This document shows, one piece after another, positions 12,901-15,103 of a DNA stretch of 20,000 nt. The notes below the pieces were generated by a model that worked only from the letters and a program-made list of their open reading frames with translations, was not told the origin of the DNA and ran no database searches. This stretch comes from Rozella allomycis CSF55 (taxonomy: Eukaryota): positions 45,194 to 65,193 of the forward strand of contig KE561079.1 of assembly GCA_000442015.1 (NCBI GenBank), given 5' to 3'. Both the position numbers and the translations under genes were made by a program. Every line of letters begins with the position of its first letter. Within the stretch, counting starts at the first letter, position 1.

Positions 12901-15103
12901 GAAAGGGCTCAACTGTTTCAAGAATTATTAGCGTCCAAACCAGATGAAAATTATCAAGATCCCCATGATTTAGCTGCAATAAAGTACGCAATGGCTAACA
13001 TGGGTGATTATAAACTTAAAAGTAGTTCAAACTATATTGTGCCAGAGAATGAAAGAATAAACGCAGACAAAAAGAAGAAACAAATGACTCTTTTAAAGGA
13101 AAGCATTAGAACCTTAAAACAAGTAATATTCAGTTATGCCATTCAAAGGACTTTAATTCTCAGATTTTTAAATTAAAGTCGTTTAAGGGTTTGCTAATAG
13201 AAGAAATAAAGTCAAAGAATGAATTAATTAAAAAAATAAACAAGGAATTGTCTGAATTGGATGATAACGTAGATTTCCAAATTTGGGAACCTGAAAATGA
13301 CCAGGGTTTACAATTTGAAAAGCGATTTGAAATAACGCAAGAAGAACTTGAAAACTCTAGTAAAATATATTTTTATTTCTAATTTGAAAATAAACCAAAC
13401 TCGAATGATAATGAAAATATTTTGGGCACAAATTTACCGACGCAGATAATCCTACCTGAAGATAAACAAGAAAAGAAGAAACAAAATGTTAAAAAGAAGA
13501 ATGAAAATGCATTGATAATGGAAGAAAAAAAGAGAAAAATAGAAAACTTAATTGAAATAAGAACAAACTTGAAAAGAGAAATAGATTCAGCAGTTGATGA
13601 TTTTGATTCAACTTTGAATGATATAAGAAAGGATAGAGTTCTTTTAGAAGGGGATTTAATTGCTTGTGAAATGAAATATTTATTACTTTTCAAAGAATGG
13701 CAACTCTTGAAAGAATTTGAAGTCAATGATAATCTATTAGCTGATAAACTAAAACACAAAAGAAATGAAAAAACTGAAATATCTGGAAAGCTTAATGAAT
13801 GCCAAGAGAAATTAATTGTTAAAAAAGTTCAAGTTGAAAATATTGTGAAAAATGGGAAAAATATTTTCGATCAATTTCTTCAACTCATTGGAGAAAACAA
13901 TAAAAATGAAGAATTCCTCACAAAACTCTTTAAAAGGAAAATTAAACGATCAAAAAAGAATTCAATTTCTTCTACAAATGATGATAATGGTAAACATCCT
14001 TTTTTCAGTTTATTAGAATCTTCTGATGACGATGAATTAGATTTTGATGACGATTCATTCGATGAAGAAAATGATGAAGATGAATTCGACGAAAATTGTC
14101 CAAAGGATTGCGATTCCGAAATTTACAATCAAGTTTTAACTTTAAGAGAAAAACGTTTAGATCAAGAAGATTTACTAAATGAAATTCAAAAATCAGTCGA
14201 AGTAAATAAATTATTTTATTTTTTATTTGTCAATGAAAAAAGATCATGAATCCTTGTTGAAAAAGGAAAAGATCATTGATTCTTCATTAAGCCAAATAGA
14301 AAAGGAAATTCAAGAATTTCAATTCCAAAAACAACAAAAATTAAATGAATTAGACATCATTGTCCCTCTTCGCTTAAATCAATTAGAAATATCAGATGAT
14401 TCAATATCTCAAGCCCTGGTATTTACAAAACAAGGAATCGCCAAACTAAAGCAAAGAAATATTGATTTGAATCAAGTAAAAGACTCATGCATCTTCAATC
14501 AAAGGAAAAATCTGAAATCAAAAGAAATCATCGCGACTTGAAGAAAATGCACGTGAGTCTTATAAAATCCAAAAAGGAAAAGCAATCCAAAGTATTTCAC
14601 ATTAATTAAAATAATAAAGTTGCTTGAATTAGAAGCAAAAGCTCATGATGTTCAAATGCTAAAATTTGGCAGAATAATCGATTTGGACAAATTAGAACGA
14701 ATGAGCACTAACAAAGCCCTGGATGAAGCAAAAGAAAAAAATCAACAAGAAGAATTAAAAAGAAAAAAAGAATTGGAAGATCTTGAAGTAATGTTTACCA
14801 AACATCTCCAAAGGATCAAATATATCAACTTCGAGAAGATCTGATTAATGTTACAAGAGAAAACACTAGCAAAATGGAAACATTTATTAATTTAACAACT
14901 TCAAAAAGAGACCTTGAGACAGCCTTGAACCAGAAACAAAAAATCATGGTAAGAAATTCTTCATTTTAAAACAGACATCCAAATATAAAGGTTTGGAAAA
15001 TATGGATAATAAAGACATAAATCATCTCAAAGAAATCGCTCGCAAGCAATCATCAGAAATTAAAATGCTAAAACAATTGATTCATGATTACGTCAAAAAA
15101 TAA
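9962..15103 (+). CDS. CFAP44: Cilia- and flagella-associated protein 44 (WDR52): N-terminal WD40 repeats and C-terminal coiled coil
   Basis: Motifs [121 protein letters not shown] and VQMLKFGRIIDLD. Fourteen reconstructed introns: 10075-10102, 10968-10993, 11273-11298, 12176-12201, 12357-12383, 12517-12544, 13123-13148, 13360-13386, 13990-14016, 14202-14229, 14476-14504, 14592-14619, 14788-14813, 14949-14974. Confidence 0.93.

What the first reader, a model, noticed from the sequence alone, without database searches (positions are those of the whole stretch)
14202..14229. Candidate non-canonical GT-TG micro-intron in CFAP44 forced by reading frame
Seen: GTAAATAAATTATTTTATTTTTTATTTG is 28 nt, the typical length here, and ends in TG. 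Removing it joins EIQKSVE to SMKKDHESLLKKEKIID in frame. The first AG after the donor (14242, 41 nt) is out of frame. The first in-frame AG (14265, 64 nt) would delete 12 coiled-coil residues that, from my recollection of CFAP44 orthologues (roughly EIQK.IE.LKKE.D.L.KKEKIID), are conserved. Known: TG acceptors are very rare, and mostly alternative, in studied spliceosomes. Inference: this spliceosome picks the 3' site by distance and accepts UG when no AG is in range.
Basis: partly seen in the sequence, partly recalled or inferred. Interest (0 to 1): 0.85.

Follow-up and report, generated by a model that had tools for sequence, protein, structure and literature searches.

The report
Tiny introns that end in TG
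A flagellar gene (CFAP44) of a chytrid-like microbe with 26-31-base introns can only make its conserved protein if one 28-base intron, and probably a second of 27 bases, is cut out at a TG instead of the near-universal AG, which would be a rare case of TG as the only working splice acceptor; no RNA data could be obtained to prove it.

Summary
Window 14202-14229 is a 28-nt, 7% GC segment that starts GTAAAT and ends TTTG. It lies inside a 1,587-codon CFAP44 gene (9962-15103, + strand) that has 14 tiny introns.

Removing exactly these 28 nt gives a gapless match to CFAP44 orthologues.

The TTTG is real DNA. Contigs of three public runs (two samples, two studies), representing different haplotypes, all carry it without an indel; for one of the three runs one difference was not displayed.

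The gene is under purifying selection. Of 24 exonic allelic differences, 21 are synonymous, including differences downstream of the intron.

I found a second candidate in the same gene: 13360-13386, 27 nt, also ending ATTTG, with no AG for 87 nt.

These two are the most T-rich of the 30 introns I inferred in the window. All 28 AG acceptors lie 26-31 nt from the donor.

No RNA evidence could be obtained, so use of the TG site is inferred and not observed. My best reading (0.72) is a U2-type intron whose only productive acceptor is UG, placed by distance from the donor. I class it as a new variant of a known kind: in humans TG acceptors are only ever alternative sites.

The parts
9962..15103 (+). 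CFAP44 gene: 15 exons, 14 tiny introns, 1,587 codons, stop codon at 15101-15103
   Evidence: Gene model built. Exon 2 matches solved CFAP44 chains at E 7e-89 and chytrid and animal CFAP44 at 45-56% identity among the 120 hits listed. The whole model scores 1542.5 bits against a profile of 22 orthologues.
14202..14229 (+). Intron 10: 28 nt, GTAAAT...ATTTG, inferred UG 3' splice site (the finding)
   Evidence: Sequence read. Exact removal is required for a gapless conserved junction. The sequence is unchanged in contigs of runs X1 and X5; none of the 11 X2 differences shown lies in it and the 12th was not shown. It has 7% GC and 61% T, the highest T content of 30 introns.
14230..14265 (+). 12 conserved codons (SMKKDHESLLKK) that an AG acceptor at 14265 would delete
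   Evidence: They align without a gap to the orthologue consensus aLkKendslikk and to P0121 VMKKEHESLIKK. Deleting them costs 35.4 bits against the full profile and 39.5 bits against the sub-profile.
14241..14242 (+). First AG after the donor (41-nt intron). It is out of frame and gives a stop a few codons later
   Evidence: It is not among the stop-free models.
13360..13386 (+). Intron 8: second candidate GT..TG intron, 27 nt, GTAAAA...ATTTG. It contains an in-frame TAA at 13380-13382
   Evidence: Sequence read. Removing it keeps the frame. The next AG ends 87 nt from the donor. The 57 nt behind it are coding-like, with log-odds +6.15 against about -13 for intron windows. It has 11% GC and the second-highest T content of 30 introns. 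The sequence is unchanged in the X1 contig and in X5 record 21.
13990..14016 (+). Intron 9: 27 nt, GT-AG, in frame and without a stop
   Evidence: Removing it scores 6.6 bits better than keeping it. The X5 allele carries an extra C inside it, which would shift the frame if it were translated.
10075..10102 (+). Intron 1, 28 nt, GT-AG (an in-frame AG at 22 nt is also possible)
10968..10993 (+). Intron 2, 26 nt, GT-AG
   Evidence: Six allelic differences lie inside it.
11273..11298 (+). Intron 3, 26 nt, GT-AG
   Evidence: Five allelic differences lie inside it.
12176..12201 (+). Intron 4, 26 nt, GT-AG
12357..12383 (+). Intron 5, 27 nt, GT-AG
12517..12544 (+). Intron 6, 28 nt, GT-AG
13123..13148 (+). 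Intron 7, 26 nt, GT-AG
14476..14504 (+). Intron 11, 29 nt, GT-AG
   Evidence: The X1 allele has +AAA and a G>T change inside it.
14592..14619 (+). Intron 12, 28 nt, GT-AG
14788..14813 (+). Intron 13, 26 nt, GT-AG
14949..14974 (+). Intron 14, 26 nt, GT-AG

Best explanation
Window 14202-14229 is a genuine U2-type spliceosomal intron of this organism's ultra-short class (26-31 nt, donor GTA). Its only productive 3' splice site is UG and not AG. A second intron of the same gene, 13360-13386, is probably of the same kind. What is shown: the DNA really reads TTTG; exact removal of the 28 nt, and nothing else that has canonical ends, reproduces the conserved CFAP44 sequence; and the gene, including the exons downstream, is under purifying selection. 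What is inferred: the spliceosome places the second-step cut at a fixed short distance (26-31 nt) from the 5' splice site or branch. It keeps the G at position -1 and tolerates U at -2 when no AG lies in that window. The unusually U-rich body of these two introns helps the early recognition steps that normally lean on the AG.
For: (1) Sequence: GTAAAT donor, 28 nt, no internal AG, ends TTTG. (2) Orthologue profile: the model with both TG introns removed scores 1542.5 bits. That compares with 1507.1 for the 64-nt AG model and 1514.7 for the 37-nt GTC..AG model. The alignment across the junction is gapless. (3) Exhaustive test: of 2,950 stop-free deletions, the 15 best printed are all 28-nt deletions. 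The GT..TG register scores 140.8 bits and the best GT-AG model 113.6 bits. (4) A metagenomic relative, P0121 (63% identity over 194 aa), encodes the region in one uninterrupted frame, gapless across the junction. (5) It is not a read error. The X1 contig covers 11030-15200 and all 12 of its differences are listed, none in either intron. The X5 contig covers 13440-15200 and all 8 of its differences are listed, none in 14202-14229. No indel is listed at either site. These contigs differ from the window and from each other elsewhere, so at least three haplotype sequences share the TTTG. (6) It is not a dead gene. Of the 24 listed exonic differences, 21 are synonymous and 3 are not, and these include 13889, 13916, 13973 and 14400, downstream of the two TG introns. 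Introns carry 13 differences in 378 nt, against 24 in 4,764 nt of exon. (7) Pattern: the two TG introns rank first and second of 30 in T content and have the lowest GC. All 28 AG acceptors lie 26-31 nt from the donor and earlier AGs are skipped. The TG introns have no AG before 41 nt and 87 nt. (8) For the second intron, the 57 nt after its TG score +6.15 bits as coding. No window of the concatenated real introns reaches that value, and only 0.06% of 5,000 random intron-composition windows do.
Against: There is no RNA evidence of any kind. No RNA holder was listed and all laid runs are DNA contigs. The 28 AG introns used for comparison are inferred from reading frames and were not observed in RNA. 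The splice register cannot be fixed from protein alone: 28-nt deletions shifted by -1 to +4 score within 0.6 bits, so register 0 rests on the GT donor consensus. In humans TG acceptors never act as the sole site, and AG>TG mutants activate other AGs (PMC2374985, abstract and section 12 read). By that precedent a sole TG is unexpected. An AG lies 13 nt behind the TG and could be the site actually used, giving a non-productive mRNA. For the second intron the orthologue profile does not discriminate (-2.2 bits for the 87-nt model). Two X5 contig variants spanning 13360-13469 (4 and 1 differences, positions not shown) suggest high polymorphism just behind it, which looks more intron-like. For X2, one of 12 differences is not in the listing.
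Confidence: 0.72

Rival explanations
1. The TG is a crippled acceptor (an AG>TG substitution fixed in these strains). The intron is spliced to AG 14242, giving a frameshift and an early stop, or to AG 14265, giving a 12-residue deletion. Alternatively it is retained. In each case the full conserved protein is not made from this allele.
For: Human AG>TG mutants activate neighbouring AGs and do not splice at the TG, and TG is never the sole site there (PMC2374985, section 12). AGs exist 13 and 36 nt downstream. No RNA evidence contradicts it.
Against: The 12 codons that would be lost are conserved and align without a gap. Of 24 listed exonic differences, 21 are synonymous, including sites downstream. 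The rest of the 1,587-codon frame and the 12 other introns are intact. At least three haplotype sequences share the TG. A second intron of the same gene shows the same ATTTG end, which two independent disabling hits would rarely give. A 41- or 64-nt intron lies outside the 26-31 nt range of all 28 AG introns.
Confidence: 0.13
2. The segment is not spliced at the TG. The frame is restored in some other way, such as translational bypassing or frameshifting, RNA editing that creates an AG, or a non-spliceosomal excision.
For: Only that no RNA evidence exists, and that several 28-nt registers fit the protein equally well.
Against: The segment has every mark of the local intron class except the A at -2: a GTAAAT donor shared with other introns of the gene, a 28-nt length and very low GC. 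The unspliced frame runs into a stop. No feature of known bypass or frameshift sites was looked for or seen.
Confidence: 0.05
3. It is a sequence or assembly error: the true acceptor is TTTAG or TTAG.
For: Nothing positive. One of the 12 differences of the X2 contig is not listed.
Against: Contigs of X1 (word depth 385) and X5 (word depth 1049) carry the window's letters at 14202-14229, with every one of their differences accounted for elsewhere, and no indel is listed at the site in any of the four runs. The best holders may include the sample the window came from, but the contigs differ from the window at other places, so they are not mere copies.
Confidence: 0.02

Closest known systems
Human TG 3' splice sites in TG-AG tandems (Szafranski et al. 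2007, PMC2374985; abstract and section 12 read)
   Same: It is a U2-type GT..TG intron with a pyrimidine at -3. For intron 10 an AG lies within the 28-nt limit reported there (13 nt downstream).
   Different: In humans TG is 'exclusively' an alternative site and never the sole one. Here TG is the only acceptor that gives the conserved protein. Intron 8 has no AG within 60 nt of its TG. The introns here are 27-28 nt long in total, and the apparent frequency is 2 of 30 inferred introns. In the fungus Ganoderma lingzhi GT-TG makes up 22 splice sites, 0.024% of the total (PMC11590231, Table 1, passage read).
Ultra-short intron systems with a narrow length window (Paramecium about 25 nt, Stentor about 15 nt, nucleomorphs about 19 nt; recalled, no call)
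   Same: Very short introns with a tight length distribution and a GTA donor. The length constraint implies that the 3' site is set largely by distance.
   Different: As far as I recall, those systems keep a strict AG. This organism uses the standard genetic code (long open frames under table 11). By protein similarity it is nearest to chytrid fungi and animals, not ciliates.
AG-independent introns of metazoans (a strong polypyrimidine tract makes the first step independent of AG recognition by U2AF35; established knowledge, recalled)
   Same: The two TG introns are the most U-rich of 30, as expected if a strong tract substitutes for AG recognition early in assembly.
   Different: AG-independent introns still use an AG for the second step. 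Here the second step itself would have to use UG.
U12-type (minor) introns with non-canonical ends
   Same: The terminal dinucleotide is non-canonical.
   Different: The donor is GTAAAT or GTAAAA, not RTATCCTT, and there is no TCCTTAAC-like branch box. U12-type introns are not known at 27-28 nt (recalled).

Membership tests
U2-type spliceosomal intron of this organism's tiny class | 5' splice site GT with the local GTA(A/T) consensus | tested here: met
   GTAAAT at 14202 and GTAAAA at 13360. All 14 introns of the gene start with GTA.
U2-type spliceosomal intron of this organism's tiny class | Length within the local distribution | tested here: met
   28 and 27 nt. The 30 inferred introns are 26-31 nt long.
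U2-type spliceosomal intron of this organism's tiny class | 3' terminal AG | tested here: not met
   Both end in TG, with no AG inside. This is the point of the finding.
U2-type spliceosomal intron of this organism's tiny class | Removal needed to restore the conserved reading frame | tested here: met
   for 14202-14229. For 13360-13386 an in-frame TAA must be removed, but homology does not fix the 3' end.
U2-type spliceosomal intron of this organism's tiny class | Spliced junction seen in RNA | not testable with these tools
   No RNA holder was listed. The four laid runs are DNA contigs without splice joints.
Human-type TG-AG tandem alternative acceptor | An AG acceptor within 28 nt of the TG | tested here: inconclusive
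   Intron 10 has an AG 13 nt downstream, so the feature is met. Intron 8 has its next AG 60 nt downstream, so the feature is not met.
Human-type TG-AG tandem alternative acceptor | TG is an alternative site beside a productive AG site | tested here: not met
   No AG acceptor gives a product that keeps the conserved residues. The best GT-AG model scores 27 bits lower, and AG 14242 is out of frame. Actual usage in RNA was not testable.
U12-type intron | Donor RTATCCTT and branch box TCCTTAAC (motifs recalled) | tested here: not met
   Neither motif is present in 14202-14229 or 13360-13386.
CFAP44 (host gene) | N-terminal WD40/EML-type beta-propellers followed by a long coiled coil, with full-length similarity to CFAP44 | tested here: met
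   Pfam Beta-prop_EML at E 5.9e-31. Solved CFAP44 chains at E 7e-89. 1542.5 bits over profile positions 33-1735 of 1,755.

The most novel reading that the evidence does not exclude
In this lineage the second-step site is set by a molecular ruler 26-31 nt from the 5' splice site, and position -2 of the acceptor is relaxed genome-wide (A or U). Several per cent of all introns would then be constitutive GT-TG introns, compensated by U-rich bodies. That would imply an altered 3' splice-site reader or proofreader (a U2AF35-like AG recognition step, or Prp18/Slu7/Prp22-type fidelity control) in a relative of fungi.
Probability: 0.4. Interest if true: 0.8.

Novelty: new variant of a known kind. Interest (0 to 1): 0.62.

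Why it matters
The terminal AG is one of the most invariant signals in eukaryotic gene expression. Where TG acceptors are documented (humans) they work only as minor alternatives next to an AG. A natural system in which UG is the sole productive acceptor of ultra-short introns would offer a simple test bed for how the spliceosome chooses the 3' site: by distance, by tract strength, or by the pairing of G(-1) with the 5' G. It also matters in practice. Gene finders that demand AG will break or truncate genes such as this CFAP44. No protein of this organism for this gene turned up in the two searches that could have found it, where the best hits had 54% and 60% identity.

Tried and rejected
Steps that gave no usable result:
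- Whole genome: none is held for this window, so no genome-wide scan for GT..TG junctions was possible.
- RNA evidence: no RNA holder was listed. The four runs laid (X1, X2, X5, X6) are DNA contigs with no splice joints. The one joint listed (13501>13835 in X6, side 23) is a low-support contig artefact or repeat and not a splice. X6 barely covers 14148-14324 (word depth 1.89), so it says nothing about intron 10.
- Rfam and tRNA scans of the window found nothing.
- Homologue search with exon 4 found nothing at E <= 0.001.
- The metagenome scan with exon 11 matched 511 pattern stretches, none confirmed by tblastn.
- Earlier findings of this scan: nothing on this genome or sequence. The two notes returned by words concern Ostreococcus introns and do not bear on this case.

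Analyses I abandoned:
- Window-wide 'bridging' scans for other non-AG acceptors were too noisy to give a dinucleotide-level control. With 25-35 open codons on each side, many chance passes occur (AA 50, AT 47, TT 44, AG 44, TG 33 ...). Only the two reported TG segments combine GC <= 11% with a sense-strand gene context.
- A greedy exon-chain builder inserted spurious introns and was dropped.
- A third TG candidate at 18107-18134 (GTAAGC...CTAAC...TTTTTG) was rejected, because the frame is open straight through it and reads like a signal peptide.

Literature:
- Searches on short introns in zoosporic fungi (0 papers), 'tiny introns' with fungi, Rozella introns, aphelid introns and 'non-AG' with short introns gave no report of sole TG acceptors in tiny introns. 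I read only listings and passages. Supplements are closed and may hold splice-site tables that I could not see.
- I did not try to name the species. By protein similarity it sits nearest chytrid fungi.

Full report
What is there. The window is AT-rich (27-39% GC) eukaryotic DNA read with the standard code, as shown by long open frames under table 11. On the + strand from 9962 to 15103 lies one gene of 15 exons and 14 very short introns, encoding 1,587 residues. Exon 2 matches solved CFAP44 chains at E 7e-89. The best named homologues are CFAP44 of chytrid fungi and animals at 45-56% identity, and no near-identical protein was found. So the host gene is CFAP44, a flagellar/ciliary axoneme protein, in an organism nearest to zoosporic fungi by protein similarity.

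The observation. At 14202-14229 the sequence is GTAAATAAATTATTTTATTTTTTATTTG. It is 28 nt long with 7% GC, contains no internal AG and ends in TG. The upstream exon ends ...EIQKSVE and the downstream frame begins SMKKDHESLLKKEKIID. The first AG after the donor ends at 14242 (41 nt, out of frame) and the next at 14265 (64 nt, in frame).

Is the 28-nt removal really forced? I built a profile from 22 full-length CFAP44 orthologues, chosen by me from the 120 listed, and scored alternative gene models.
- Both TG introns removed exactly: 1542.5 bits.
- Intron 10 ending at AG 14265: 1507.1 bits (-35.4).
- A GTC donor at 14229 with AG 14265: 1514.7 bits (-27.8).
The alignment across the junction is gapless against the consensus eikKavdaLkKendslikkekiid. 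I then enumerated all 2,950 stop-free, in-frame deletions with a 5' end in 14150-14239 and a 3' end up to 14319, and scored them against a sub-profile. The 15 best are all 28-nt deletions. The GT..TG register scores 140.8 bits (rank 2; the top, 141.4, is the implausible TA..GT register one base to the right). The best model with canonical ends scores 113.6 bits. A metagenomic relative (P0121, 63% identity over 194 residues) encodes this stretch as one uninterrupted frame and aligns without a gap across the junction. Protein evidence cannot fix the register to the base, because shifts of -1 to +4 score within 0.6 bits. Register 0 is chosen because it alone gives the GTAAAT donor that other introns of this gene share.

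Is the TG real DNA? Ten public runs hold the stretch or part of it, and none is on record as RNA. I laid four of them. All four are contigs of DNA without splice joints.
- The X1 contig spans 11030-15200 with 12 differences, all of them in the listing and none in either TG intron.
- The X5 contig spans 13440-15200 with 8 differences, all listed and none in 14202-14229. X5 record 21 covers 13177-13389 with no difference.
- The X2 contig spans 11030-14448 with 12 differences, of which 11 are listed, so X2 alone cannot exclude a substitution.
- No insertion or deletion is listed at either site in any run.
X1 and X5 are one sample and X2 is another study; any of them may be the window's own source. 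However, they differ from the window and from each other elsewhere, so at least three haplotype sequences share the TTTG.

Is the gene alive? I placed the 40 listed differences on my gene model. Of these, 24 are exonic, with 21 synonymous and 3 non-synonymous; 13 are in introns and 3 lie behind the stop. The synonymous ones include 13889, 13916 and 13973 (between introns 8 and 9) and 14400 (behind intron 10), all at third codon positions of the frames that the TG splices create. Differences are about seven times denser in introns (13 in 378 nt) than in exons (24 in 4,764 nt). Length changes (+C, +AAA) occur inside introns 9 and 11. Another 25 differences were not shown by the tool. This is the signature of a translated gene and not of a pseudogene.

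A second case. Between the frames 13110..13382 and 13383..14249 there is an in-frame TAA. The only local-type donor is GTAAAA at 13360, and the segment 13360-13386 (27 nt, 11% GC) again ends ATTTG. Removing it keeps the frame. The next AG ends 87 nt from the donor. Homology does not decide here: the 87-nt model costs only 2.2 bits, because the region is a poorly conserved linker. Two things favour the 27-nt TG intron. First, an 87-nt intron would be almost three times the longest of the 28 AG introns. Second, the 57 nt behind the TG score +6.15 bits in a codon-usage versus intron-composition test. That value lies inside the range of coding windows (mean 10.7, sd 5.2), while windows of real introns average -13.1 and none reaches it. 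One thing counts against it. Two X5 contig variants that span 13360-13469 carry 4 and 1 differences. Given how such contigs arise, these differences should lie roughly in 13390-13439, a density more typical of introns. Their positions were not shown. I put this second intron at about two in three.

Pattern in the window. I took as introns the GTA...AG segments that bridge open frames (one search list, ambiguous ones left out) plus the CFAP44 set. That gives 28 AG introns and 2 TG introns, all inferred from frames and not from RNA. Their lengths are 26-31 nt. In every AG intron the acceptor lies 26-31 nt from the donor, and AGs ending at 4-25 nt are passed over. The two TG introns have no AG ending between 26 and 40 nt, and in each the TG is the only TG ending within the 26-31 nt range where acceptors lie. 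They rank first and second of 30 for T content (61% and 56%, with a median near 36%) and have the lowest GC. By chance, two named items take the top two of 30 ranks once in 435 times.

Most likely mechanism. These are ordinary U2-type introns of an extremely length-constrained class. With only 26-31 nt between the splice sites, the second-step site is probably set sterically by distance from the 5' splice site or branch point. This is an inference. The G at -1 is kept and the A at -2 is replaced by U. From structural work that I recall and did not look up here, G(-1) pairs with the 5' G(+1), and A(-2) contacts the branch adenosine, so a change at -2 should be the less damaging of the two. The very U-rich bodies may compensate during early recognition, as in AG-independent introns (established knowledge, recalled). 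None of these steps has been observed.

Comparison with what is known. GT-TG introns are documented. [quoted passage not shown] Single functional cases such as GNAS are cited in PMC4176328 (passages read). In the fungus Ganoderma lingzhi GT-TG accounts for 22 splice sites, 0.024% of the total (PMC11590231, Table 1 passage). The present case differs in three ways. The TG is the only acceptor that yields the conserved protein. The introns are 27-28 nt in all. And the apparent rate is 2 of 30. My searches found no report of sole TG acceptors in tiny introns, but I read listings and passages only, and supplements were closed.

Verdict. I class the finding as a new variant of a known kind. The missing piece is RNA.

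Noticed in passing
It is treated in the report as a probable second TG intron.
   Followed up: yes
window 9900-15200 (runs X1, X2, X5, X6): Public DNA runs carry several haplotypes of this gene. The differences are mostly synonymous or intronic, and introns 2 and 3 carry 5-6 differences each within 26 nt. Introns 9 and 11 differ in length between haplotypes (+C, +AAA).
   Followed up: partly
window 15698-15880, 16426-16515, 16707-16954: A dispersed direct repeat family (90-nt and 99-nt units, 62-97% identical) lies in the gene-poor stretch behind CFAP44. 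Rfam gave no match in the window. I did not work out what it is.
   Followed up: partly
window 6264-9897 (+): Upstream gene with histidine-kinase-like and receiver-like sequence (judged by eye from the translations, with no family search), also cut by 27-28-nt GT-AG introns. One candidate intron (7459-7483) starts GTATCC and holds an N at 7475.
   Followed up: no
window 1171-1201: This 31-nt GT-AG intron, the longest class here, has an in-frame TG ending at 25 nt. Sequence alone cannot tell which end is used.
   Followed up: no
window 10075-10102: Intron 1 of CFAP44 has two in-frame AGs, ending at 22 and 28 nt. I used 28 because it fits the length range.
   Followed up: no
P0121/P0122 (metagenome proteins, 213 aa): The closest relatives found (63% identity) read straight through the positions of introns 10, 11 and 12 of the window gene, so those introns are absent there. 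Their alignment ends exactly at the position of intron 13, and the tail then diverges. That may be read-through into an intron at the same place.
   Followed up: partly
window 18009-19834 (+): Downstream gene for an Asn/Ser/Thr-rich protein with many N-x-S/T motifs. Its start is unclear. One possibility is ATG 18009 plus a 62-nt GT..AG intron, which would give a signal-peptide-like N-terminus.
   Followed up: no
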